Source of the DNA: Flaccisagitta enflata
Taxonomy: Eukaryota
DNA: 64,000 bases
Reading direction: 5' to 3'
Assembly: GCA_965153355.1 (NCBI GenBank)
Contig: OZ231126.1
Location: 40,982,001 to 41,046,000 of the forward strand
The notes under the pieces are model-generated. The model was not told where the DNA came from, did not search any database, and was given only the letters and a program-made list of their open reading frames with translations. The first letter of the stretch is position 1. The number at the start of each line of letters is the position of its first letter. Positions 290 to 42,253 of the stretch are shown here, piece by piece. A program made the position numbers and the translations under genes.

Positions 290-3133
290 TTATTCGACCT
301 CATCAGTCTTTAAAAATTTGTAAAGATGACGTAATATTTCATTGTGAGAATTACATAATCCAGTTTGGAAAGAAAGTCGTCGTTTGGCAAAAATAGTAAA
401 AAGATCATTGTAACCCAATCCAGTACGGAAAGTTCGAATGCTTTCCCAATGATTGAACGTAAATATTTTTCGAATAGCATTGTTAAGAGCAGAATTGCAT
501 TTTGACATTTCTGAAGAAGAAAACTCCTTAACATCAGATGCGTAACTTAGACTAGGGACGCAGCACGTATACAACAAATGCATTAGTACAGTTTCACTCC
601 CGTAGGTAAAAGAATTAAAGATAGAATTGAAAGATGAATAGAAATTCCTTAGGTCGTTTCGGGGACTAAATGATAGGTTTTTTCCCGAAACAATTATTGC
701 ACCCAAGTATCTCCATTCTTTAACAAACTGAATAGGTTCACCATTCAACGTTGTAGAGCACGGAGGATTATTATGATTTTTTCCAAAAAACATTGATTTA
801 CTTTTTTTCGGGTTGAAAGAAAGACAATATTCAGAGCAATAATCAACACAGATATCGAGCATTTTTTGCATGGCCTTTCTGGATGGTGCAATTAAACATA
901 AGTCATCCGCGAAGAGCAGTGACCCCGTAAAAATATGATCGACATAGCAACCAATTCCCTTTTTTCTTAATAACTTAACAAGATCGTCAATGTACACCGT
1001 AAAGAGTTTTGGGCTTATGACGCCGCCTTGTTTGACCCCGGAAGGAACAGAGTAAGGGTTACTAAAAGCGCTTTGCCATTTACAGCGGTTTTCCATATTC
1101 GAGTACCAGTATATCAGCAAGTTGATGTAACAAAGAGGAACATTACGCTCAATCAATTTTAGAAATAAACCTCGATGAGAAATCTTATCGAAAGCCTTAG
1201 AACAATCTAAGAACGTGACAATAGTGCTTGATCCGTGCTTGGAGAAATAATCTACAGTAGACCGTAAAACATATAAAGCATGGCTACAGGAATGTTTTCT
1301 TTTAAATCCAAATTGTAAATTATCAGTTTGAAGAAAAGAATCCATTTTTAGAATAAGCAAGTTTTCTAAAAGTTGAGAAAAGATATTCGAGAGTGTAACA
1401 GGTCGGTAATTACTAGAATCATTTATATCACCATCTCTGTCTTTAACAACTGGAGTAACAGTGCCGTTCAAGAATGCACAAGGAACATAATTGTGTTGAA
1501 CCAAACCATTGAAAAGTATATTCAAATGAATGGCAAGTTTAGGACTACCAAGGAAAATATGTTGACTACGAACAAATCCTCCGGTTGCTTTACCTAATTT
1601 CAATTTACTTAACGACGTAATCATATCATTCCATGAAAAGTAAAATTGACCGAGATCGTCATTACCATGCAATTTCGTGTATTGGTTATGAGCATCAGAA
1701 AACCGTTTATCTAAGTTTGAATGAGCTTCCGTTTTAGGTGCATTATAAACATTGCTAAATGTGTTTTTGAAAGAATCCGAAATTTGTTGTTCATCTACAA
1801 AGCCATCAATACGACAAACATTTTCACTATTAGCATTCGTAGAATTAAAACGTTTCCAAAAAGTATTGTAATCATGAGAAGCTAAAGCATCGTTTAGATC
1901 ATCATTTACTTCCTTATTCGCATCTTTTTTTGCTCTTCTGACAGCAATTTTGTAATTGTAATGAGACTTCTGTTTTTCACAAAATATGGGCCCGGATCTA
2001 GGACAGCCTGCTAATTTCCACAATTCACAAGAATCAATACTTTTTTGCTTCAAGTCAGTAAGCCCATCAGACCAAAAATGCCGTGCAACGCCATGTTTTT
2101 TGCGCGGAAGTGTTAAATCAGCCTTGATAATAGCATTACAAATATCGTGAAAATATGATTCAAGAGTATGACAATGCTGAGAAACATTACATGTAGAGCT
2201 ACCATGTAAAACAGTTTGGGGAATCGAAATTGAATTCAAATTATTTTCCATAGACTGTTCGTAACATTTGATTTCATCTTCATTTAATGAGTTCCAAGGA
2301 ATATAAGAGGTGGTGGATTTTTGTTTTTTGCTAAACATTTGGCATGCAATGTTCAAGTTCAATTCAACGGGAGAATGATCACTAACATTATTACCGTAAT
2401 GTCGTATACATGGATTAGAGATCAGTGGGGAAAGTGATTCACTTATCAAAATACCGTCAATCAAGGAGTAAGAATTTCTCTTTGGTTCACATCTAGTGTA
2501 ATCAACCATTGGATCAAATGCAGGATTAAGATTGAGAGCTGAAATCAGACCAAATTTTTCCATTAAGTCGTGAATAATTGGAGTGAAGGGATGAGATGGG
2601 TCAAAGATATTACAGTTCATATCCATTAGTAGAATAAATCGACAGTTACTATTTGTTGAAAGAATAGAATCTATGTAACCAACAGTATCATGGTAAAGTA
2701 ACAATTGAGTATCCATATTTCTTGTATCGTGAAAAGGTAAATAGGCATTAATCAGTAATATCTCACCTTGTTCAGAATTCAGTTTCATAACAGAGACACG
2801 ATCATGCTTATATTTGTGAATTGGAGTCAGAGCAAAATTAAGGGATTTGCTAAAAACAAAACCTGTGCCTCCATATGGGCGGCCTTTATGAACAGAAGAT
2901 GCAGTTTTTTCTTTCATTGCAGAAATACCATATCCATCGTAATTAGGATGAATACTACTCAATCTATTAACACCCAAATGCTTACGAAAAGATGGTTTCA
3001 ACCAGTGTTCTTGCACAGCAAAAATTCCATATTCTTCATGATCACATTGATGATAAATGAAATCCTTACTTCCCGTGAATCCGTTGATGTTGTGGGAAGA
3101 TAATTTGATTGAGATGGTATCCGAGTCAGACAT
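290..3133 (-). CDS. LINE ORF2: apurinic-like endonuclease plus reverse transcriptase, 947 aa
   Basis: Endonuclease motifs HNING, VQEHW, GRPYGG, NAYLP, IDGILIS, SDHSP. RT motifs YRPVTL, QFGFK, FLDCSKAFD, GVKQGGVISPKLF, FADD, RYLG. No RNase H domain seen. Confidence 0.96.
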   Translation of the reverse strand: MSDSDTISIKLSSHNINGFTGSKDFIYHQCDHEEYGIFAVQEHWLKPSFRKHLGVNRLSSIHPNYDGYGISAMKEKTASSVHKGRPYGGTGFVFSKSLNFALTPIHKYKHDRVSVMKLNSEQGEILLINAYLPFHDTRNMDTQLLLYHDTVGYIDSILSTNSNCRFILLMDMNCNIFDPSHPFTPIIHDLMEKFGLISALNLNPAFDPMVDYTRCEPKRNSYSLIDGILISESLSPLISNPCIRHYGNNVSDHSPVELNLNIACQMFSKKQKSTTSYIPWNSLNEDEIKCYEQSMENNLNSISIPQTVLHGSSTCNVSQHCHTLESYFHDICNAIIKADLTLPRKKHGVARHFWSDGLTDLKQKSIDSCELWKLAGCPRSGPIFCEKQKSHYNYKIAVRRAKKDANKEVNDDLNDALASHDYNTFWKRFNSTNANSENVCRIDGFVDEQQISDSFKNTFSNVYNAPKTEAHSNLDKRFSDAHNQYTKLHGNDDLGQFYFSWNDMITSLSKLKLGKATGGFVRSQHIFLGSPKLAIHLNILFNGLVQHNYVPCAFLNGTVTPVVKDRDGDINDSSNYRPVTLSNIFSQLLENLLILKMDSFLQTDNLQFGFKRKHSCSHALYVLRSTVDYFSKHGSSTIVTFLDCSKAFDKISHRGLFLKLIERNVPLCYINLLIYWYSNMENRCKWQSAFSNPYSVPSGVKQGGVISPKLFTVYIDDLVKLLRKKGIGCYVDHIFTGSLLFADDLCLIAPSRKAMQKMLDICVDYCSEYCLSFNPKKSKSMFFGKNHNNPPCSTTLNGEPIQFVKEWRYLGAIIVSGKNLSFSPRNDLRNFYSSFNSIFNSFTYGSETVLMHLLYTCCVPSLSYASDVKEFSSSEMSKCNSALNNAIRKIFTFNHWESIRTFRTGLGYNDLFTIFAKRRLSFQTGLCNSHNEILRHLYKFLKTDEVE

Positions 3134-4496
3134 TGTCCTGGTCCTGTCTGGAGGTTACTCCATCATCCGTTTGACGGCGAGGGCCAAAGAAGTGACGGAT
3201 GGTTATCCCCTTTGGCCAGAATTCCTCGTCTTCAATCTTCTCCAGGTCCTGTTTTTTGATGACGAGTTTGTAAGATTGGAAAGCGTCATGTTTTGTTGTC
3301 AGTTGTTCGAGACTGACGACGTCGACGCCTTTTGTATCCTGAACGTATTGTCGGAGTTCGTCGACGGTGGTGCCGTTGGCTATTCGACCAACATATTTGG
3401 CCACCGTCATATCAACACCTCTGATCGAGACGAGACCATTGCTGACGCTTTTTCCAATGATCACTTTTGCTCGTGAGGAATCGCGACGCCGCTGTTGCTG
3501 TCCTTGTTGTTGTGGATGCTGTTGGCGGCGTCCTTGCTGCTGGGGCCGTTTTGAGCTGAGAGCCCCAGCCCAATCCCTCGACGCCTTTGCCGCCGATGGG
3601 ACGCCGATGGGCGCGACAAACGATGGAAAGGAGCCGGGTGCAGTGACCGGCGCCACAGGAGACCGAGTTGAGTCGGAGGATGAAGATGAGTTCTCACGGG
3701 CATGACCATCTGGCGAAGATGGTGCATCAGCGGCTGCCGACGCTACTGCCGCCGAAACTTCCGGCGCTGCCGACGCTGCCGACGCTGCCGACGCTGCCGA
3801 CGCTGCCGACGCTGCCGATGAAGACTCCGGGCCCAATGAATCGACTGAAGCCACCAACGTCTCCGTTAAGTTATTGGCAGGAAACGCTGAGAGAGTTGAC
3901 TCCGTTTGAGCCGCGGAATTTGACGCTGCAGGAGCCGAAACCGACAAGGACTCTGCCCGTAATGGCAGAGACTTTCTTGGCGACGAGAGATGCTCTGGTA
4001 GAAGTTTCTTTCTAGTCGGCGTTAATGGTTGCCGCGTATCCACTCGAAGATTATTTTCAAATGAAAATTTTAGGTCGTCTTTGGTAGCCGCAGTCGTTTT
4101 AAGCGTTTTAATGGACCGGCTCACGTTTTGAACAGAAGCGAGAATTTGTTCAAGCGTCGCAGAGCCGTCTTTTCCGTCGACAACACGTGGAATACGTGAC
4201 AGATCAGCCGCGACAAACACTGGCGCAATTGCATCATCATGATCAAGAGCCATCATTTTTTCAATGACGTCAGACAAATCCTTCGTGCGTTGGTCCGTCC
4301 CACGCCGAGGTGGAGCGCGGAGGCCGATGGCGTCAAAAAACTTCATTTTTTCAAATTCAACTTCTTCAGATGAGTAGAATTTTCCACATGTTTCAACGAT
4401 AATATCCTTTGGTGTTGAGAGGATTTGGTTTTGTACGAAACAGAGCAGTTCAGAAATAATCAGTTTCCCACTGAGTGGCTTGGCCATTGTGGCCAA
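3126..4496 (-). CDS. LINE ORF1 nucleic-acid-binding protein, 456 aa
   Basis: N-terminal ELLCFVQN...FVAADLSRIP block of the kind seen in invertebrate CR1/L2-group ORF1s, a low-complexity linker with (SAA)n from a 9-bp repeat, and a C-terminal RRM-like block (YVGRI...FQSYKL...FWPKGITIRHF). Overlaps ORF2 by 8 nt (ATGTCTGA). Confidence 0.88.
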   Translation of the reverse strand: MATMAKPLSGKLIISELLCFVQNQILSTPKDIIVETCGKFYSSEEVEFEKMKFFDAIGLRAPPRRGTDQRTKDLSDVIEKMMALDHDDAIAPVFVAADLSRIPRVVDGKDGSATLEQILASVQNVSRSIKTLKTTAATKDDLKFSFENNLRVDTRQPLTPTRKKLLPEHLSSPRKSLPLRAESLSVSAPAASNSAAQTESTLSAFPANNLTETLVASVDSLGPESSSAASAASAASAASAASAAPEVSAAVASAAADAPSSPDGHARENSSSSSDSTRSPVAPVTAPGSFPSFVAPIGVPSAAKASRDWAGALSSKRPQQQGRRQQHPQQQGQQQRRRDSSRAKVIIGKSVSNGLVSIRGVDMTVAKYVGRIANGTTVDELRQYVQDTKGVDVVSLEQLTTKHDAFQSYKLVIKKQDLEKIEDEEFWPKGITIRHFFGPRRQTDDGVTSRQDQDNV

Positions 4497-4951
4497 AGCC
4501 CGAGGTCAAAATAATCAAGACTTCGAGTGATTCAGTCAGGGTTTTTTTTCGGTTAAGAGAGAAAATAATCAGGACGACGGAGAGAGGTGTTGCTCCGACG
4601 AGGTCCAATGAGTTTTTTTTGAATATAAACATATAAACATGCGATTGGTAGAAGGGGAGCGCAGCAGAGAAAATATTTTTTGAAAACAGCCTCAGATAGT
4701 ATTTTGTATCAAGAAATACACGCGTTCTCGCACGCCTTTTCAGCAAAACAAGGCCATTTACAAAGACCCCCTTTCGCGAATGGGCGGGCAAGGGCAGAAT
4801 AGCAAGCAACGCACATATTTTATTATGGTTACCGACGGACGAATTGACGGACGGGTGGAAAGACCAACCGACCGAGAGTGTGTGTGTGTGTGTCTGTCTG
4901 TCTATCTGTCAGTCTATATGTCTGTCTTCCAATGTATGCAAGTGTGTGAGC

Positions 4952-5056
<105 letters not shown>

Positions 5057-5083
5057 GAAAGAGAGAGAGATCGCAGCGCATAC

Positions 5084-7472
5084 TTGATATGCTCCAAACT
5101 CGGCCACTGTTGCTGAGTACAGTGGATATTGAGGAATGGGAATCATGACTCCGACGGGACGATCGGCCTTCTGATCGGGAAGCACCAACTTCATTATCGT
5201 TCGAATACCGTCAGATGCACCTGAATTGAGTAGCAAACGAAAGAACATAACTATTGCGGGTAGGCCTGTCATCACGATAAAAGTCTAACAAGTGACGCGG
5301 TGTCACAATATCGTTGCGGGCGGGAGGGCAGGGGCTTCCTACCAAATCCACACTCTACAACCATACTCAACAGGTCGCCCAAGGGCAAAATGTGGTCAGC
5401 CATACCCGTTGCCCTGCTTTGCATGATTGTGAAATGGAGTGAAAGGAAGCAGGGCAGTGGCCCCAAAGGGGCCGAAGTCCTGTAGAACACAGGGGGACTT
5501 TCATTCATCATTCCGTTCATCCGTCCGTCCCTCCGTTCCCCCCAGGACCTCCTCGGCCTTAAAACCGCCCTCTCAGGACTGAAATCTACCCTCTCAAGCC
5601 TTGAATCTGTGAGGGCAGATTTCAGGCCTGAGAAGGCAGATTTCAGGCCTGAGAGGGCAGATTCAAGGCCTGAGAGGGCAGATTTCAGGCCCGAGAGAGT
5701 TAATTTTAGGCCTGAGAGGGCAGATTCCAGGCCTGAGAGGGCCTGGGGGGACAAATGGACGAACGGACGAGCGGAATGACGAATGAAAGTCCCCCTGTGT
5801 TCGTCAGGACTTCGTCCCCTTCGGAGCCGCTGTCCGCAACTAAGAATTGTGAACTCCAGCGAAATTGAAACTTCTGCACTTTTTGGGCAGCGGCCCCGAA
5901 GGGGACGAAGTCCTGTAGAACACAGGGGGACTATCGTTCGTCCGTCCGTCCGTCCATCCGTTCGTCCGTTCGTCCGTTCGTCCCCCCCCATCAGGCCCCT
6001 CAGACCCCACATCCAGCCTCTCAGGTCTCAAATCCGGCCTCTCAGGCCTCAAATCCGGCATCTCAGGCCTCAAATCCAGCCTCTCCGGCCTCAAATCCGG
6101 CCTCTCAGGCCTCAAATCCAGCCTCTCAGGCCACAAATCTGGTCTCTCAGGTCTCAAATACAGCCTGAAAGGCCTTAAACCTGGCCTCTCAGGCCTCAAA
6201 TTAACCCTCTCAGGCCTCAAACTAGCCCTCTCAGGCCACAAATGAGCCCTCTCAGGCCTTAAATTAGGGCTCACAGGCCTCAAAGTAGCGCTGTCAGGCT
6301 TCAAATCAGACCTGATTGCCATTTAAGCCTTGGGAAAGCCTTCAGACTCTTGAAGGCCTTCAATCAGTGCACTATAGCATCTCATCAATGTTGTCAGGCA
6401 GGACGAACGAAAGTCCCCCTGTGTTCTACAGGACTTCGTCCCCTTTGGGGCCGCTGCCCTGCTTCCCCTCACACAAATTCACAATCATGCAAAGCAGGGC
6501 AACGGGTATCGCTGACCACATATTGCCCTTGGGCGACCTGTTTTTAAACTGTTACGTTAACTCACCTGTTGTCATGAAAATGTCCTCCCAATTGGCAGGA
6601 ATGCCACCATCTCTTTCCTCGATGTACTTGGCAACGTCGCGTCGAACCAACTCAATTCCAGGGCTCGCTTAAAACAGAGAAACAATCGCTTATTTCAATG
6701 ATACTTTGGGAGATACATTCATTTGTCAGAGGAGAACAAATGCTCGAAATGCACAGAAAAGAAAAAAAAAAGAAAAGAAAAAAAAAAGAAAAGAAAAAAA
6801 AAAAAAGAAAAGAAAAAAAAAAAAAAAGAAAACCTGAACCTTATTGTCTCATGCGGATGGGCAGGAGCAGTGAACCTCATAGAGTGCTTCAAGATCGACC
6901 GGCAAGCGGCTTATACCAAGGAAGAAAACAAAAACAAACCAGCAATTTGATTACTCACCTGTGTAACTACCGACGCTTTGTCCCTGGCAAGCTTTGAGAA
7001 GCTGCTGCGACCTGTCGACGACGTCTTTGGGGTAGTTGGCTACGTCGACGATTTGCGGATCAACGCAGGCGGCGATCGTTTGCCGGATAAACGTGTTGGG
7101 CTTCATCCCGACAGCGTGACAATCGCCGATGTTGGCGCGAGTCACGGAGGCGAAAGGCTTATTCGCACCCTACAAGGTATGAAGATGATGGTCGAGTTTA
7201 GAGAAAAGTGCCCACAAATGCCATGTCAATCGTCAGGCAGTAGAACGTGATAGATTTCATCCTTACGATTCTGTTAGCGAGAAGTCAAAGGCCTACATCG
7301 TCATAGAAGATAGGTTGGTAATGTATAAAGACCAACAGCAACAACACTCATTGAAGTCAGAGAGGCAAACGGCTTCTTAGGAAATCTTACATGGTAAACA
7401 ACAACAACAACAACAACAACGCTTAGTGAAGTCAGAGAGGCAAACTGCGTTTTTGGATATCATCATGAAGTC

Positions 7473-32759: not shown

Positions 32760-35700
32760 TGTGTGTACACTCATAAAAAAAAGGACGATATACAATAAAT
32801 AAATATCGTCGTTGTTGTATAGCAACGGACGTTATTGTATTTCAGCAATACAACGAATTGTACAGCAAATACAACGAATTGTACAGCAAAAACAAAAATT
32901 GGATAGCAAAAACAAAAATTGTACTGATTCCCCCGAAAAAATGCAAAAAAACAAAAAATGTATCGGGAAGATGGCCGTCTCTTTGCTGTACAATTATTGA
33001 AATAAAAATACAATTATTAAAAAATTTGGACTCTGCCAAAAAAAGGCAATTTTCGAGTCCATGGACAGTATAATTTTTGTATTTAACAGACTCTAAACTT
33101 TTTCGGCCATCGCGAAAAAAAATTAGAGTCAAAAAACGGTTTAATAATTGTATTTACGAGACTCTAAAATTTTTCGGCCCTCGAAAACAGAAAGTTAAAG
33201 TCCAGGAACAGTATAATTATTGTAATTACAGACTCTAAAATTTTCCAGACCACGAAAAAAAAAATTAGAGTCCATGAACAATATAATTTTTGTATTCAGG
33301 GGACTCTAACTTTTTCACGCGAAACGAAAAAAAACCCAGATTTTCTTAAAGTTTCAAGCTTGTTCAAAAATTGTATTTTGCGCAGAAATAGAGTCCGAAT
33401 TTGTTCTTTTGTTTCACGCAATGCTGCAATGAAAGCAAGAAGACATCTGTGATTGTGAAGGATGATATTGCGCCTTTGTTCAGCCTCACTCGGGATCGCA
33501 GATTCAGAAAAGAAAAAAGAGGAAGAGGAAGAGGAAGAGGATGAGGATGAGGAAGAGGATGATTATCGAAGTTTAATAAAAAAAATCATTATACGCTTTG
33601 ACGCGCGCGGGGGAGAGGCTGCTGAAAATAAAAAAAAAAAAAAAAAAATACGAGACTCATAATGTTACACCCATTTTACCGGTGCTTTCACTACCCGTCT
33701 TTTTGAGTCTTTTTTGTGGGTTTTCTCACGTTTTTCTCATCTCTTCAGCTGGACCGTCACGAAGGAACGAATAACAAAGTCGTCACGAAGCTTTGGTTTA
33801 GCGAAACATGGCCCAACAACATCGAGTGAAGAGGAGCCTCTGACTTGGCCTCATTGCACTGTGTTCTAAGAGTGACTCAAAATTGGGCAAAAATTATCTG
33901 ATGGATTTATTATATTATAATACTTTAAACTAATAAATAATAAATGAGAAATGTTATTTTTTTTCTTTTTTTTGTCATTTTTGTCATTTTTGTGAATTTT
34001 GTCAACTTTGTCAACTTTGTCAACTTTGTCAACTTTGTCAACTTTGTCAACTTTGTCAACTTTGTCAATTTTGTCAATTTTGTCAATTTTGTCACTTTTG
34101 TCACTTTTGTCACTTTTGTCACTTTTGTCACTTTTGTCACTTTTGTCACTTATGTTTTTTTTTTTCATTTTTGTCATTTTTGTCACTTTTGTCACTTTTG
34201 TCACTTTTTTCACTTTTTTCACTTTTGTCATCATAGTCATCATAGTTATCATAGTCATCATAGTCATCATAGTCATCATAGTCATCATAGTCATCATAGT
34301 CATTCTAGTCATTCTAATCATTCTAGTAATTTTAATGATTTTAATTATTTTCTATTGACAATAATGAAAAGAATGACAAAAAATGACAAAAATAATATTT
34401 TTCATATATTCTTTATAATTTTGCAGTGTTATAACATGAGATATCCATCAGATGATTTTTGTCCAATTTTGAGTCGCTCTCAGAACACAGTGCATTGTAA
34501 GAAGCTCGACTGCCGCCGCCGAGGACGCCACTTTGAACGTCTCTCGACGCCACAGTTGAGAACCAATTTTTATCAAACGCAAGGAGGAAGTACTTCAGAC
34601 CATAGACTAACACTATCTCTCACGGCATCATCCAACTCGACCGCCAAGGGCCTCATTTACGTCTTCAAAAATCGCCGAAGTTCGAGCGCCGCCGCCTACG
34701 CCTTCAATCGACTCTCGAGCGGCCAATTCCACTCCAATCGTCGTCAAACGCGGGAAAAACGTTCATCAGGGTCAACTCTACGATTATCTTGTCCGCCATG
34801 CTGAGTTTCTATCGTCAAGTGCCTCGTTGACGCGACTAAAAGTCGTCAAACCGACAATAATTCTCCCAACCCACAGACCCCCCCGGGGTGAATGCTGAGT
34901 GTCCAGCAAAGTAACCCTGGGGCCGATGCTTCGAGTTCAACAGTGGCCGAATTCAACAACTCCAAGGAGCCCAAGACTTGGCCTGGCAACAGAAGCCGTC
35001 GAGGGCAAACACTGATCCCGCCCACAGCCTTGGAGATAGGCCATAAAGGGGGTTTGGTGCACAAGCCACCACCCCACCCATAGGGTGAGCCGAACAGACA
35101 GTTCTAAGCAGACAAACTTATTACTTTCACCCCTTCTACACTCGAACTCTACTTAACAAAAGTGCATCAATTTACACTATTGCAATTTATTTCCTTACAT
35201 GTCCACGACTTCGGGGGCCTCAACGAGGCACTGGCGCATCGACAATCGACTTCAGCTCGCGTCCACAGACTCCACGGGTCCGTCACTAGCAGCCGAGATC
35301 AACAGATTCGATCCGCCATCAACCCAACACCTCGTTGACGATCTGCAGTTCGCCAAAGTTACCAAAGATCAATTGGGGTACTTCGAAGCGGATGCAACTT
35401 TGACGATGCGCTGCGGCCAAACGCGTGAAGCAATTTTGACAATTTTTTGCATGAAGATCCCCAAGGACCTCCTCTACGACTTCCAACCGTCAGCAGCCCA
35501 TTCTTTCATTGATTTGGGTCCCCGCTTCGCGAATCCGTGGAGGGCCTACGGAGCTCTGGCGGAAAACAACTTACCATTATATCATCAACTTCAACGCGAG
35601 TGGTAGCCCAAACCCCTCGATGGATTTGGCTATAAATCGCTGTGGAGCTCCCCCTTGATGTGTTCTTTCAAACGTAACTCTGAGTTCCCGCCCGAATCCA

Positions 35701-38700
35701 TGAGAACCGGGTGTCGCCTTCGAATCCGTTTCCGATTGCATCACTCACTGCAGACTCTTGAAGGATCCGTCAATATCTCGTCGTTTGCATTGTGCATCTT
35801 TGACAAGCCACTGCGCCTCAACCAGTTGAAGCAACATCGTAAAAACGAATACAGAGGTGCACCAACAGTTGCTGAACAACATCAAACTGTCATTTCCCGT
35901 CCGACTCATCGCAATCGAGTTGTCCCTCAAAACACTCAAAAACGCCTTCAACTGAAGCACTTGACGAGGCGCTGCAGCCAAACCACTTGGAGAAGTGCCC
36001 TAAGACTAAGCAGGCGTCTACATCAACTAAAGGGCTAACAAACGCGACCATCCGCGACCCTCTAGCCCCTCCCGTTCTCGAGCAGTGCTTCGACAAAACT
36101 GAAAATGTCACCAAAACGCCTAAATCTGAACCGCACAGTGGATCACAACAGGGAAAAATGGCGAAAAAACCTATCTCCAGCTCTTAAAAGAGTTCGGAGG
36201 ATTCGAAGATCATTGATAGGCTCTCCTGCTGAATCTGCCTACGCTATTTTTGAGAACGTCGCTCCAACCGTTTCGAGATACAGAGCGTCAAAGCAAAAAA
36301 TCTTCACAGCGCCGAAAACGGATTTTTGCCATATTCAGAAAAACCTCAATTTCTCCGTGACAAAGGATGCGAGCGAAAATTCTCAATTGACAGTTAGTGC
36401 CGTGAAGTCAATGTGAGGTCCCCAAGCATGAGAAATTTACCGTTTTGAAATAAAGTGATGAAATTGCAAATAAAAAAATTTCAATTTCAAAGAAAAACTT
36501 AGATTTCTTATGAAGAATGTCGGAGTTCTGAAAAATTGCATGTTGACAGTTTATGCCGTGCCAAAGCTAACGGTGATGTCCGTGTCTACGAGAAATCTAC
36601 CGTTTCAGCGCCAGAGACCGGCAAAGTTCTAAACCCAAAAATTTCCGAACTTCAAGCCGTAATCAACGCAGTTGACCATTATGATATTGATATGAAGAAT
36701 TAGCATATAAACAGGCACTTGATCCAGATTTTAGGCAACTTTCAACGCCAGGACTGGTTTACAGTTCAGGAAAATCCTACTCGGTGATTCATACAACTAC
36801 GTTGATGTCTCAAAACAGTCCCGCTAAACCGTTTGTTCCGCTCAATTTTTGAAGGAAGATATTTGACGTCATTGAAAATTTTAGCGAGAAGACAGTTTAG
36901 CGAGGAAAAATTTTAATAAGAAAAAATTTTAGCAAGAAACGGTTCAAATGAACAAAATTTAACCAGAAAAAATTTTAACGAAAAAATTTTAACGAAAAAA
37001 AGTTTTAACAAGAAAAAAATTTAGCAGAAAAAATTTTGCGAAAAAAATTTAGTTTATAAGATTTAGCAAGAAAAAATTTTAGCGAGAAATATTTTAGCAA
37101 AAAAATTGATTCAAAAAAATTTTAACAAGCAAAAATGTTGATAAAAAAAATCTTAGCAGAAAAAATTTCAAAATCGACGTTTTTCGTTATAATTTTTTTG
37201 CTAAAATTTTTTCTTATCAAAATTTTTCATCGCTAAAATTTCTTCTCGCTTAAATTTTCAATAACGTCAAATATCTTCCTTCGAAAATTGAGTGGAACAA
37301 ACGGTCTAGCGGGACTGTTTGAGTCATCGACAAAGATGTACGAATCACCGAGTGGGATTTTCCTGAACTGTAAACCAGTCCTGGCGTCATTTAAAGTTGC
37401 CTAAAATCTGGATCAAGTGCCTGTTGATGTGCCAATTCTTCATATCAATATCATAATGGTTAACTGCGTTGATTACGGCTTGAAGTTCGGAAATTTTTGG
37501 GTTTAGAACTTTGCCGGTCTCTGGCGCTGAAACGGTAGATTTCTCGTGGACACGAACATCACCGTTAGCTTCGGCACGGCATAACATATCAATATGCAAT
37601 TTTTTAGAGCTCCGACATTTTTTGTCACCAAAGAAATCTAAGTTTTTCTTTTGAAATTCGGAAATTTTTATTGGCAACTTTCAGTCTTTATCTCCAAACG
37701 ATAAATTTCTCATGCTTGGGGACCTCGCCATTGACTTCGACACGGCACAAACTGTCAAATTGAGAATTTTCAGTGCTCAGGCATCCTTTGTCACGGAGAA
37801 ATTGAGGTTTTTCTGAATTTGTGCTTAAAAATCCGGTTTTCGGCGCGCTGTGCTGAAGATTTTTGGCTTTGGCGCTCTGTATTTTTGAAACGGTTGGAGC
37901 GACGTTCTCGAAAATAGCGTAGGCAGATTCAGCAGGTCGAGATCTATCAAATTGATCTTCTTTGGAATCCTCTGAACTCTTCTAAGAGCCGGAGGTAGGT
38001 TTTTTCGCCATTTTTCCCTGTTGTGATCCACTGTGCGGTTCAGATTTGGGCGTTTTGGTGACATTTTCGGTTTTGTCGAAGCACTGCTCGAGAACGGGAG
38101 GGGCTAGAGGGTCGCGGATGGTCGCGTTTGTTAGCCCTTTAGTTGATGTAGACGCCTGCTTAGTCTTGGGGCCTTTCTCCAAGTGGTTTGGCTGCAGCGC
38201 CTCGTCAAGTGCTTCAGTTGAAGGCGTTTTTGAGTGTTTTGAGGGACAACTCGAATTTGGCTGGCCTAAACTCTTTGAAATGGGCCTTTTTACCGTGGCA
38301 TCGTGTGCATCAGTTGTTGCTGCAATGACATGCTGATTTTTGAGAGGCTGGGATGCTGCTGGCGTCGACGAGGCACTTGAGAAGCTTGTTGAAGGATCCT
38401 CATCGAAATAGACATCAAAATCAGCCAATTCTCTTTTTATATCAGCAAACATTTTTCTCTGCTTCTCTTGAATGTTGTGAGTCCGACATTGAACAACAAT
38501 TTGTGGTAATTCTCACCATTTCCATCCTTCTGATTCGTGGGGGCCCTTGAGGGCGACGTCGACGAGCAGCTGCAGCGATTCCGCATCCTCAACGCCGCCA
38601 ACAACGTCGCCAACAGCGTCCACGACGTCCACAACGCCCCCAACAACATTCCAACATCCTCAACGTCGCCAAGACAAAGAAAAGGAGTCCCCAGTCTTGG

Positions 38701-41700
38701 CCCTTTCGAAGGGTTGACTTGGGCGCCCATCGGATCCGCCCGGGACCTTGGAGATAGGTCGGAAAGGGGATCTGGTGCAGGAGCACCCACCACTACCACG
38801 TGGTGAGCCAGAGCAGAGAGAAGACTAGTCTAACCACTCTTAACTTACTCTCTTTCACCCCTTACCGACAGAACTGACAGCCACCAAGATCTCTGATTAT
38901 CTTAATTCATGCTGTTTGTTCATCATTCTTTTATCCACATGTCCGCGGGGATCAACGCCATCAATCGACTGCGGGAGGCTCGAGTACATCCCAGTACACT
39001 TCACTACGTCCATCCGCATCCTCTCGACCACCCACGAGGCTCGCAGACGTCCAGCAGCTCGTCGTCAACATCCCTCAAACTTTGAAGACTCTGGCATCAA
39101 CAACCTCAACACCAGGCGCAGACGAACGGCTCCCACGCCCAAACGACGAGCCCCACGACCATCAGACGCGGTAAACACGTCCACCACATCGTTGGGTAAC
39201 AACATCCATCGTCACTTCGCCCATACGAACCTCCAGTGGCTCGTCATCCGCATCACCAAGTCGTCCTCGTCGAGCTTTCGCCGCCGCCTAAATGTAAACG
39301 TGACGCCAACTTTGAAGAGACGCTGACGCCGAACCTGCGAAGGAATCTGCACGAAACTCGAGCTCCAACTACCTTGGTATCGACTCTAACAACGCTGAAA
39401 GTTTCAACCTCCGGACTCAAAGGGTTCGAGTATATTCCCTCACACTCCTTTTTGCTCTCAAATTCGCCATTTTCGACGATCCTCCAACACCCTCGGTTTC
39501 AATCGTCTCTCGACGCCGCGATTCGACTTCTATCAGCACCAAAACGATACCAGTGGTACTCCAAGTCGTCCTCTTCGAGATTCTGGACCAACCACGACGA
39601 TCCTCCACCCCCAAGCAGCCCGTCCGCGTCAACAAACTTCAAATTCGACAAACCTCCATTTCCGGAAATTTCAATCGTCTCTCGACGCCAGAGTTCGGGT
39701 TTGATCGTCACAAAAATTGACAGGCATGTACCTCTAAGTGTCCTCTACGACATCCACCACCAGCAGCGACCGTCTTCAGCCGCCAAGCAGCCCGTCCGCG
39801 CGACGAAAGTTCGGGTTCGTCGAGCCGCCGCCGCCGGCGACTTTAATCGTCTCTCGACGCCAAAGTTCGAGTTGGATCGTCGTACAAACCAACAGGCATG
39901 TACCTCTAAGGGTCCTCTACACCACTCACTACCAACAGCGACCGTCATCAGCCGCCAAGCAGCTCGTCAGCGCGACGAAAGTTCGAGTTCGTCGAGCCGC
40001 CGCCTACAACAACTTTAAGTCAATCCCAGCGGCCCAATTCTTCACCAATCTTCGTGAATTCGCTCGTGGAGTGATATCAACTCGTCCACCACCTTCTCCT
40101 CTCGCGCCATCGTCATACTCAAACGCCAAGTCCCTCGTCAAAGCGAACAAACCGCATCACTTCGCGACCTTCGCTTCCAAAGACTTCATGCTTCACTTGA
40201 CGACCTGCTGCGCGACTGAGAAGCTCGAGACCGGTTCACCATCGTCTAGTAGTGTCTCCTCAACTTCCACTTCCATCCTCAACTCGTCAATCAACTCCCA
40301 AGTCTCCCGTTGACGCGACTGAAGTCGCATACTACTAGAGTTTCAAAGCAAAGAAGTGGCCATATCTGCCAAACGGCTCGTCAGAGGAAAAATCCGCTGG
40401 ACGATCTCCACCTCTGGTATAAGTCAAGGTTGCTGAATCAGCAGACATGTCGCTACATGGGTTTTTATGAACTCAACTCGTTTTACTCCTTAACTCAGTG
40501 ACTACTGTATGCAAATGAGCTCTGCCCAAGAAAGTTGTGTGTAGCAAGAATACACATTGTTCGTTCTGCTTTACAATAAACTTGTATCTGATTCATCCTG
40601 AATCCTGGACTTTTTATTTCTACAAGGCCTAGAGCCTTAAGTATGATTAAATACCCCAAAGGGGTAGTTGAATGACTTTAAGGGCTGAATGCCCCTGTAA
40701 AGACTTGTACTGTGGCGTAGCCTTGTGTCTTATGTTGTAACTGTAACTACAACACCAAACTTGTTTGGAGTCCAAGTTGTGGCTATTGCTCACAGCTACA
40801 AATTGTTTATTTTGAACCCCTCAAACATGATCTTTGGCTTGTATCTTTTTTATGCATCACACTGTAAGTCGAGGTCGGCCTTTCAGCAGACATACAGCTC
40901 CATAGCCTAACTCGTTCATTACTCGTTTTCTTCATCAAATGACCAGCAGCAATATGCAAATCAGCTGAGCTGAAATTCTCATATCCAACAGAAGTATTGT
41001 TATTATCAATATTATCATTATTGATACTGTTATTGTTAAAATTAATACTAAGTCCATGTTATTGACGTGCTGATTGACTCGTGCAGTACTATTGTTGTAT
41101 TGAGCACGACACGTGCAATGCAATGGTTGTATTGAGCACAATTTGTGCCATACAATTGTATTGAGCACGAGTCGTGCTCAATGCAACAATTGTATTGCAC
41201 GAATCGTGCTCAGTCACCTAGAAGACAAACAAATACAAAATTATATGGAGCACGACTGCAAACTATTGTGTCCACCATGTAATACCATCGGCATTGGCAT
41301 GTGATAGTTTTGTTTTGTTATGTTATTATTAAAAACAAAAACAAGAAAAACTACAGCCACTTATTTCCCACGTTTTGTTGATTTGTGAAAGCAACAAATT
41401 TGTTCGTGCCTGATTTCGCTAGGACCTGTGATGATGTTGTTAGTTCAGTCAGAACAATGGGCATTCGTTTAAAATGATTATAGTCAGTCAGATCCAGTTT
41501 AATGGTCTTGCCAAGATTAGTCACGTACACGCGACTGTACTCCTTGCCGTGTCGGTCGGTCGGTCGGTCGGTCGGTTGGTCGGTTGGTCGGTCGGTCGGT
41601 CGGTCGGTCGGTCGGTCGGTCGGTCGGTCGGTCGGTCGGTCGGTCGGTCGGTCGGTCAGTTGGCCGGCCGGTCGGTCGGTCGGTCCGTCCGTCCATGCGT

Positions 41701-42253
41701 CTGTCCGTCACATTGATAAATTCCGCCCGAATTTTGCAGTACTGCTCCTGCCGAACCGTCCGCGACTGGATTGCCATGTATCCGGCCTTGTATTAGTGAA
41801 CTGCTATAGCCAGCAAGGAAACTACCCTGCGCTCAGGGTAGTTTCTTTGCTGGTTTTTTTTTACTGGCTTTTCGGCTATACAATTTTTGTATTCAGCTAT
41901 ACAATTATTGTATTTACTACGGGTTCTGGCGCTGAAATACAATTTTTGTATTTTTTTTTCCTGCTCGCTGCCGGCTCCTTTTTTATTCAATTATTGTATA
42001 AATTATGGAATACAATAAATAAATATCGTCGCTACAATAATTAAATATCGTCGTTTTTTTATACAATTTTTGTTTTTTCCTATACAATTGCTATACAATC
42101 GTCATACAACTCGTGTATTTGCTGTACAACTGCTGTACAATTGCTGTACAATTCGTTGTATTATCTAAAATACAATAACGTCCGTTGCTGTACAACACGA
42201 CGATATTTATTTATTGTATTTTTGGAAAGTTTTATGAGTGTATGTGTGCATGT

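What the first reader, a model, noticed from the sequence alone, without database searches (positions are those of the whole stretch)
33857..34492. Transib-like MITE whose ends read as 23-spacer V(D)J recombination signals
Seen: reading inward from the right end gives heptamer CACTGTG (34492-34486), exactly 23 nt of spacer, then ACAAAAATC (34462-34454), an 8/9 match to the RSS nonamer ACAAAAACC. The left end gives CACTGTG, 23 nt, then GCAAAAATT (6/9). The TSD is 5 bp (CATTG). Established: Transib is the relative of RAG1, makes 5-bp TSDs and has RSS-like TIRs. Inference: this genome hosts or hosted a Transib/RAG-like transposase recognising a near-canonical symmetric 23/23 signal, which is informative for the origin of the 12/23 rule. 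No transposase is present in this window.
Basis: partly seen in the sequence, partly recalled or inferred. Interest (0 to 1): 0.7.

Follow-up and report, generated by a model that had tools for sequence, protein, structure and literature searches.

The report
Transib mini-transposon with V(D)J-like ends
This is an ordinary non-coding jumping element of the Transib group, whose ends are long known to resemble antibody-gene recombination signals, but looking for its parent revealed a second Transib family in the same genome that carries one short-spaced end and a row of long-spaced ends and appears to choose among them when it jumps, much as antibody genes choose among segments.

Summary
It is a non-autonomous Transib made of two copies of the 3' end of a 5,239-bp autonomous element found elsewhere in the genome (L149: intact 741-aa HzTransib-like DDE transposase, GRP motif, TSD CAATG, no RAG2). 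33 of 38 independent family sites have perfect 5-bp TSDs. Across three end types the nonamer is conserved (0.85) and the spacer is not (0.42). But heptamer-23-AAAAAAATC is the published Transib consensus (PMC1131882), CACTGTG is a minority variant (4 of 43), and most near-identical copies are passengers of one insertion in a larger element. The scan found this kind before on other DNA. Alone: interest about 0.2.

Side result, outside the window: a subgroup I-type Transib family (intact copies, 99% identical) has 12/22-spaced ends, and its 22-type end is a tandem array of 2 to over 28 whole signals. Orphan arrays end at a unit boundary (10 of 12) and rejoin the TSD (6 of 10 clear), as expected of excision at an inner signal. 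I found no description in five literature searches. Overall 0.5.

The parts
33852..33856 (+). left target-site duplication CATTG
33857..33971 (+). left terminal inverted repeat, A-type end (copy of the parent's 3' end)
   Evidence: arms 83% complementary; 81% over 108 bp to the parent's 3' end
33857..33863 (+). heptamer CACTGTG
33864..33886 (+). 23-nt spacer
33887..33895 (+). nonamer-like block GCAAAAATT (family form ACAAAAATC in 41 of 43 A ends)
33972..34377 (.). non-coding interior of 9-bp tandem repeats (TTTTGTCAN-type, then CATAGTCAT-type); the TTTTGTCA-type repeats are an expansion of subterminal repeats also seen in the 3-kb A/B elements; element length varies 536-1039 bp among copies at this site
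34378..34492 (-). right terminal inverted repeat, also A-type
   Evidence: (78% over 121 bp to the parent's 3' end)
34454..34462 (-). nonamer-like block ACAAAAATC
34463..34485 (-). 23-nt spacer
34486..34492 (-). heptamer CACTGTG
34493..34497 (+). right target-site duplication CATTG
32768..42240 (.). larger repeated host element (9.5 kb, inverted ends starting CACTCATAAAA, TA on both sides, 71-bp subterminal repeats at 33041-33334) that carries the MITE as a passenger; probably CACTA/EnSpm-type (label recalled, not tested)
   Evidence: (copies share 1.1 kb of left flank up to the same breakpoint)

Best explanation
A non-autonomous Transib element (MITE) of an HzTransib-like (subgroup II-type) family. 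The family's transposase binds each end through a terminal CAC heptamer (cleavage site) and an AAAAATC block 23 nt further in, probably by its GRP-led helical domain, cuts, and inserts with a 5-bp duplication into CA(A/T)TG-like targets. The autonomous element has two ends of different sequence but equal spacing (23/23); because both are 23-type, any two can pair, so elements built of two 3' ends (A/A, as here) are mobile as well as A/B and A/C ones. This copy inserted once into a larger repeated element and has since been multiplied mostly as its passenger. Shown: anatomy, TSDs, shared end with an intact transposase gene, conservation pattern, passenger status. Inferred: which protein part reads the nonamer, the hairpin cleavage chemistry (from HzTransib/RAG), and that L149's own protein moved this copy.
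For: L149 3585-8823 (G000:C2:47301084-47306322): 5,239 bp, TSD CAATG, A end identical to the family form but for 2 nt, C end CACTGAG+23+CTAAAAATC, one intact ORF. Protein: only PDB sequence hit HzTransib 6pqn, E 7.8e-50; profile of 22 sequences E 4.2e-116 to HzTransib, 5.5e-7 to amphioxus RAG1L, about 1e-4 to RAG1; AlphaFold model pLDDT 78.6, best fold match HzTransib 6pqx TM 0.87 over the target, then RAG1; D311, D420 invariant in the alignment, E658 by alignment to HzTransib; KRGRPNK at 120-126. 38 independent flank classes (5 A/A, 31 A/B, 2 A/C), 33 of 38 perfect 5-bp TSDs, 52% GC, G last in 26 of 33. Pairwise identity over end types A, B, C: heptamer 0.71, spacer 0.42, nonamer 0.85, positions 40-60 0.33; over 7 end types of three families 0.74, 0.39, 0.77, 0.27; 0 of 5000 shuffles reach the nonamer value in any window. 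25 loci (21 distinct places) share the CATTG site.
Against: Only one intact copy of the parent type was found (searched with a 48% identical relative; 25 of 25 candidates scored); it has a C end, whereas the commonest independent insertions are A/B, so their mobiliser may be an unseen relative. 5 of 38 sites lack a perfect TSD. GRP motif and A-rich block do not co-vary strictly: L151/L152 lack both, but L156 has GRPK and no A-tract at 33-37. The parent's motif is GRPN, not the GRPR/K that contacts the nonamer in RAG1 (bioRxiv 2023.08.20.553239, passages). Four of the seven end types were picked up by filters that favoured A-rich ends or likeness to A, so the 7-type figure is biased upward; B and C were found by TSD alone and are not.
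Confidence: 0.9

Rival explanations
1. The element is a Transib MITE, but was moved by another transposase than the L149 type: an unseen relative with a B end, or the sister family L153/L154, whose 3' end has the same ACAAAAATC at the same place.
For: 31 of 38 independent sites are A/B and none of the fetched A/B elements showed a transposase match; L154's end is CACTATG+23+ACAAAAATC; the MITE arms match A/B elements as well as or better than L149.
Against: L149 shares the whole A end, spacer included, and A/B and A/C interiors match L149 on both sides of the gene; the L153/L154 frames fetched are broken and their spacer differs.
Confidence: 0.25
2. One reading: the ends are substrates of a RAG-like (RAG1L/RAG2L) enzyme with a near-canonical symmetric 23/23 signal that illuminates the origin of the 12/23 rule.
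For: Right end is 6/7 and 8/9 to the RSS consensus with a 23-nt spacer; RAG1-family fragments exist in the genome (L072 matches PF12940 at E 1.6e-12).
Against: The element that carries this end encodes an HzTransib-like protein with no second gene; no A, B or C end near the RAG1-like fragments; the pattern is the published Transib norm.
Confidence: 0.04
3. A foldback or other MITE whose RSS likeness is chance.
For: AT-rich ends make A-tracts common; the interior is simple repeats.
Against: Shared end with an intact Transib, 33 of 38 5-bp TSDs, block conservation across unrelated spacers.
Confidence: 0.01

Closest known systems
Non-autonomous Transib elements (TransibN1_DP, TransibN1_DM, TransibN1_SP, Hopper; Kapitonov and Jurka 2005, PMC1131882, passages read)
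   Same: CAC ends, heptamer + 23 bp + AAAAAAATC-like block, 5-bp TSD, GC-rich CASTG/CAWTG-type targets, 23-type at both ends as in most families.
   Different: New host; three end sequences of one family in one genome show the spacer drifting around a fixed nonamer; built of two 3' ends; amplified as a passenger.
HzTransib of Helicoverpa zea / subgroup II Transib (PDB 6pqn, 6pqx; Tao et al. 2022, PMC9435367, whole text)
   Same: The parent aligns over residues 207-718, lacks the alpha11-alpha12 stretch of ZnB and the CCGHC tail, same fold.
   Different: About 27% identity in the fold match; the parent has some 200 residues N-terminal to the part matched by the solved construct, with a GRP-led helical region.
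Vertebrate RSS and RAG1/RAG2
   Same: Heptamer-spacer-nonamer layout, 23-nt spacer, GRP motif, RNase H DDE fold.
   Different: No 12-type partner, no RAG2, mobile element rather than a recombination signal; family heptamer is CACTATG.
For the side family (L159-L166): subgroup I Transib (PMC9435367) and the 12/23-type families Transib5, Transib2_AG (PMC1131882); PflRAGL-A (bioRxiv 2023.08.20.553239, passages)
   Same: Ends offset by 10 bp, ZnB stretch shared with RAG1L, zinc-knuckle-like tail, GRP motif, 5-bp TSD, no RAG2L.
   Different: The long-spaced end is a tandem array of whole end signals, and orphan arrays look like footprints of cutting at inner signals; not seen in the texts read or in a term search of the PMC9435367 supplement (its figures were not visible).
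For the array: KolobokP solo LTDRs and LTDR excision (PMC9587614, passages); MULEs with tandem TIRs (PMC3310237, passages)
   Same: A DNA transposon with more than one usable or duplicated end; in KolobokP, partial excision leaves parts behind.
   Different: There two (rarely three) long repeats; here up to 28 or more 71-bp signals on one side against a single differently spaced end. In the MULE paper the inner TIR appeared not to be used.

Membership tests
Transib (non-autonomous) | 5-bp target-site duplication | tested here: met
   CATTG here; 33 of 38 independent sites perfect
Transib (non-autonomous) | ends CAC-heptamer, about 23 bp, A-rich nonamer, with conservation in two blocks | tested here: met
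   definition from PMC1131882
Transib (non-autonomous) | ends shared with an element encoding a Transib DDE transposase | tested here: met
   L149
Transib (non-autonomous) | GC-rich target preference | tested here: met
   TSDs 52% GC against window bins mostly 35-45%; modest
Transib (non-autonomous) | nick-hairpin cleavage | not testable with these tools
   inferred from HzTransib/RAG; no footprints of this family were sought
Subgroup II Transib (parent L149) | loss of alpha11-alpha12 in ZnB and no CCGHC tail | tested here: met
   about 35-residue gap against L158-L166 and no C-terminal cysteine motif; no such gap against HzTransib
Subgroup II Transib (parent L149) | place in a tree with named references; CTT2 tail | not tested
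   no named reference sequences were available as ids; only profile E-values
RAGL transposon (RAG1L + RAG2L) | RAG2-like gene inside the element | tested here: not met
   one long ORF in L149; the genome-wide PF03089 search rang nowhere and is uninformative
Vertebrate RSS pair | 12/23 spacer asymmetry | tested here: not met
   A, B and C ends are all 23-type at 38 of 38 sites
Vertebrate RSS pair | cleaved by RAG1/2; RIC score | not testable with these tools
   no RIC model or assay available
Subgroup I Transib (side family L159-L166) | asymmetric ends | tested here: met
   shared TGATGGG-A-tract starts after 12 nt at the 5' end and after 22 nt at the 3' end; same offsets in MITEs L173, L174 with another spacer
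Subgroup I Transib (side family L159-L166) | alpha11-alpha12 stretch of ZnB | tested here: met
   profile aligns to amphioxus RAG1L in one stretch 333-701, E 1.1e-18, while the HzTransib match splits around 433-500
Subgroup I Transib (side family L159-L166) | CTT1 tail CX2CX3GHX4C | tested here: inconclusive
   CX2CX3GEHX4C at 724-738 of L160, one residue longer; the three cysteines are invariant in 15 sequences
Subgroup I Transib (side family L159-L166) | place in a tree with named references | not tested
   best PDB score is still HzTransib (E 4.2e-32)

The most novel reading that the evidence does not exclude
The same genome holds a natural control pair for the 12/23 question. The window's family is 23/23 and freely pairs like ends. 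A second, recently active, RAG2-less Transib family has one 12-spaced end facing a tandem array of 22-spaced ends, picks one member of the array at each excision, leaves the outer signals joined to the flank in a coding-joint-like scar (short trimming, one or two palindromic extra bases), and may be restricted to 12/22 pairing: a transposon-borne miniature of V(D)J segment choice that predates or parallels RAG2.
Probability: 0.55. Interest if true: 0.78.

Novelty: new member of a known kind. Interest (0 to 1): 0.5.

Why it matters
The MITE itself adds a host and a clean demonstration (three spacers, one nonamer, one intact transposase) to something known since 2005: about 0.2. The novelty label refers to it. 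The value lies in what the parent search turned up, which I would class as a new variant of a known kind. In RAG the nonamer-binding domain enforces the 12/23 rule (bioRxiv 2023.08.20.553239) and RAG1 without RAG2 is reported not to prefer 12/23 over 12/12 (PMC8355894, passages). Two intact transposases from one genome, one with 23/23 ends and one with 12/22 ends, GRP motif, RAG1L-like ZnB and a zinc-knuckle tail, make it directly testable whether a RAG2-less Transib enforces asymmetric pairing. Genomic scars showing choice among many long-spaced signals would be a natural precedent for selecting among arrayed RSSs, and a route by which a transposon seeds dispersed minisatellites of recombination signals (over 2,600 exact units in two sequence variants).

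Tried and rejected
Conservation among copies of the A end: uninformative. RAG1-family hits L031-L036 as parents: no A, B or C end near them, no protein match in the 35 oriented loci or the 20 further loci. Single-sequence AlphaFold of the parent: pLDDT 33.8, not used. Pfam on the parent: no family. RAG2 search: nothing rang, controls included. A strict link between GRP motif and nonamer: fails on L156. A genome-wide census of all 23-spaced ends across families was not obtained, so the cross-family comparison rests on 7 end types from fetched loci. An empty host site for the CATTG insertion was not searched. Expression: no RNA holder listed for the L160 gene. Array at C2:20.02 Mb first looked orphan, but the interior resumes after an insertion: rejected as a footprint. 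L211/L190 (junction 7 nt inside a unit) and L196 (no TSD) do not fit the footprint model. L159 and L177/L178 have non-matching flanks at their two ends, unexplained. The far end of L189/L171 was not fetched. Earlier notes on this genome: none. No tree was built and no complex was predicted.

Full report
OBSERVATION. The element runs 33857-34492 (636 bp) between two CATTG pentamers. Reading inward, the left end is CACTGTG, 23 nt, GCAAAAATT and the right end CACTGTG, 23 nt, ACAAAAATC. The inverted repeats extend about 115 bp at 83% complementarity and the interior is 9-bp tandem repeats. One RSS-like site of this quality occurs in the window against 0.04 expected (100 block shuffles). The window is G000:C1:40982001-41046000 of a 794-Mb, 9-contig genome; it is an animal by its noggin gene, otherwise unnamed.

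COPIES. A DNA search gave 212 matches from 40 of 741 candidates scored; the end pattern has 130 hits, control 0, of which the first 100 were listed. The closest copies are not independent: they share both flanks, with 1.1 kb of left flank up to one breakpoint at window 32768. That is the end of a 9.5-kb host element (32768-42240, inverted CACTCATAAAA ends, TA on each side). 25 loci, 21 distinct places, are this one CATTG site; at it one group has CACTGTG at both ends and another CACTTTG/CACTATG, so the near-canonical heptamer is not a fixed trait. I fetched 35 listed A ends that had no listed partner and 20 further stretches around a second end type. Most belong to non-coding elements of 2.3-9 kb (one of 18.5 kb, L079-L080, fetched in two pieces and not in the count below) whose other end is different: B (CACTGAC + 23 + CCAAAAATC; 36 hits) or C (CACAGAG + 23 + TTAAAAATC), both first found by TSD alone. 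Merging sites whose flanks differ at 3 or fewer of 20 bases gives 38 independent sites: 5 A/A, 31 A/B, 2 A/C; 33 of 38 have a perfect 5-bp TSD, 52% GC, CA(A/T)TG-like. Loci in which no partner end was found were not counted.

PARENT. PF12940 found six weak hits; searching with two of them gave 22 and 104 matches, many with open frames over 700 codons. One, L149 3585-8823, is a 5,239-bp element with TSD CAATG, the A end downstream of the gene, a C-type end upstream, and an intact 741-aa ORF. Its only PDB sequence hit is HzTransib (E 7.8e-50); a 22-sequence profile scores 4.2e-116 on HzTransib, 5.5e-7 on amphioxus RAG1L and about 1e-4 on RAG1; the model (pLDDT 78.6) matches HzTransib best and RAG1 next. 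It has KRGRPNK followed by helices, the two catalytic aspartates invariant and the glutamate by alignment, no alpha11-alpha12 stretch, no CCGHC tail and no second gene. By the criteria of Tao et al. (PMC9435367, whole text) this is subgroup II-type; I built no tree. Both MITE arms match the parent's 3' end. Against a simple parent-daughter link: the commonest elements are A/B and no B-ended gene was found.

NONAMER TEST. Among end types they can: A, B, C give pairwise identity 0.71 / 0.42 / 0.85 / 0.33 for heptamer, spacer, nonamer and the next 21 bases; adding the two ends of sister family L154 and of MITE L140 gives 0.74 / 0.39 / 0.77 / 0.27; 0 of 5000 shuffles reach the nonamer value in any 9-base window (the four added ends were found with filters that favour A-rich ends). 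The block is therefore under constraint at a fixed distance. It is not universal: L151/L076 and L156 have CAC ends and 5-bp TSDs without it; L151/L152 also lack GRP, but L156 has GRPK.

COMPARISON. Kapitonov and Jurka give the Transib consensus as CACAATG, 23 bp, AAAAAAATC, with 5-bp TSDs, GC-rich targets, most families 23-type and a few 12/23 (PMC1131882, passages; also PMC8355894, passages). The finding is thus the textbook Transib end. Mechanism, as inferred: equal spacing lets any two ends of the family pair, which is why A/A elements arose and moved at least five times.

SIDE RESULT, OUTSIDE THE WINDOW. The larger group (L158-L166; 767-791-codon open frames; L159, L160, L161 over 99% identical) is a different Transib. 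Its profile aligns to amphioxus RAG1L in one stretch across ZnB (E 1.1e-18) and to the RAG1 nonamer-binding region weakly, though HzTransib still scores best; it has GRP and a CX2CX3GEHX4C tail. Its ends share TGATGGG plus an A-tract, beginning after 12 bases at the 5' end and after 22 at the 3' end, which in RSS terms is a 12 and a 22 spacer. TSDs match in L160 (CGGTA), L161, L163, L166 and L165/L170, and do not in L159 and L177/L178. Two MITEs keep the 12/22 offsets with another spacer (L173, L174). So far this is the known subgroup I type. The unusual part: the 3' end is a head-to-tail array of 71-bp units (129 bp in L163), each a whole end signal, 2 to more than 28 per element. Two unit variants have 489 and 2,164 exact genomic copies against 16 5' ends within one mismatch (diverged 5' ends are missed) and 13 exact array-to-interior junctions of one variant.

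If the enzyme can use an inner unit, the outer units should stay behind, joined at a unit boundary to the old TSD. I checked this. Of 8 arrays listed, 3 were orphan. Of 21 arrays listed (first 38.7 Mb of C1) I sampled 14, favouring short ones: 4 led into element interior, 1 was unresolved, 9 were orphan. Of these 12 orphan arrays, 10 stop 0-4 bases before the next heptamer position, read by eye; 9 or more of 12 in a 6-base window has a chance of 4e-8 if breaks were uniform (the window was set after seeing the first three). Both sides were visible in 10: six rejoin the outer TSD clearly (L204/205 exactly; L188 and L207/206 after trimming 4 and 2 bases; L203/212 with an extra T, L209/198 with extra TG, L186/187 with an extra T and one TSD base lost), two partly, two not. 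The extra bases are palindromic to the adjoining end, as hairpin opening would give (inference from V(D)J, recalled). In contigs of four public runs (at most 4 samples, 2 studies, one possibly the assembly's source), loose ends of many different sequences pile up at unit tails (positions 946 and 1230 of L188; 3-21 contigs per run and place; only the best-supported rows shown). Abortive gap repair after full excision is the main rival, but it would not break at unit boundaries. That the enzyme is restricted to 12/22 pairs is only hinted: every two-ended element of this family that I saw was 12/22, but they are few and were mostly found through the gene or the 12-type end.

Five literature searches (titles and abstract starts) and a term search of the PMC9435367 supplement showed no Transib with an array of ends. 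The library lacks most subscription papers and Repbase, figures were not visible, and bioRxiv supplements are closed. Nearest parallels are KolobokP partial excision (PMC9587614, passages) and tandem-TIR MULEs (PMC3310237, passages). The RAGL-A preprint (passages) notes that asymmetric TIRs, CCGHC tail and GRPR/K motif have each been seen in Transibs.

VERDICT. The finding is real, and a new member of a known kind (about 0.2 by itself). With an intact parent, a clean nonamer test and a contrasting 12/22 array family in the same genome, I score 0.5.

Noticed in passing
L159-L166, e.g. L160 2665-8605 (G000:C3:41132964-41138904): Subgroup I-type Transib family with intact, over 99% identical copies, 12/22-spaced ends and a tandem array of whole 3' end signals.
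   Followed up: yes
L186/L187, L188, L204/L205, L207/L206, L209/L198, L203/L212: Orphan arrays of the 22-type signal joined at a unit boundary to the target-site duplication; look like scars of excision at an inner signal.
   Followed up: yes
L189 and L171 1-110 (G000:C1:38987.3-38987.6 kb): A short array followed directly, in the same direction and without loss, by a 12-type end; could be an inversion (hybrid-joint-like) product. A noggin gene (PF05806, E 2.4e-35) lies 2.3 kb further on.
   Followed up: partly
L072 5045-6184 (G000:C6:12.746 Mb): RAG1L-like fragment, PF12940 E 1.6e-12, ending in an exact CX2CX3GHX4C motif; no ends or RAG2-like neighbour identified. L073 is a similar broken fragment.
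   Followed up: partly
L151 679-8961, L076 3900-7233, L156 2855-7461: Transib families with CAC ends and 5-bp TSDs but no A-rich nonamer; L151/L152 lack the GRP motif.
   Followed up: partly
L154 3249-7800; L140 264-857: Sister family of the parent (broken frames) and a 594-bp MITE, both with 23-spaced A-rich blocks and unrelated spacers.
   Followed up: partly
L149 position 4530, minus strand: An internal end-like site (CACTATG, 23 nt, A-run) inside the parent, facing its 3' end, without a matching TSD.
   Followed up: no
L164 ORF: Long open frame, but asparagine in place of the first catalytic aspartate (GFNG for GFDG).
   Followed up: no
L131/L136/L162 (G000:C2:47.87-47.89 Mb): Two copies of the array family 17 kb apart in opposite orientation, arrays facing each other.
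   Followed up: no
window 32768-42240: Host element with TA-flanked CAC ends, 71-bp subterminal repeats and an internal inverted segment (about 35950-36500 against 37700-38250, seen by eye); right-flank copies 99.6-99.9% identical, so recently amplified.
   Followed up: partly
window 290-4505, minus strand: Apparently intact LINE: 459-aa ORF1 and 954-aa endonuclease-reverse transcriptase ORF2 (PF00078 E 3.2e-30).
   Followed up: partly
window about 5075-5200, minus strand: Exon-like peptide resembling alanine aminotransferase (recalled; no Pfam hit).
   Followed up: no
L054 1322-6001 of the oriented locus: An A/A MITE sits just upstream of a 1560-aa open frame that looks like a Helitron-type protein with a peptidase-like N-terminus (recalled motifs, untested).
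   Followed up: no
L184 229-238: Ten Ns hide the outer end of one orphan array.
   Followed up: no
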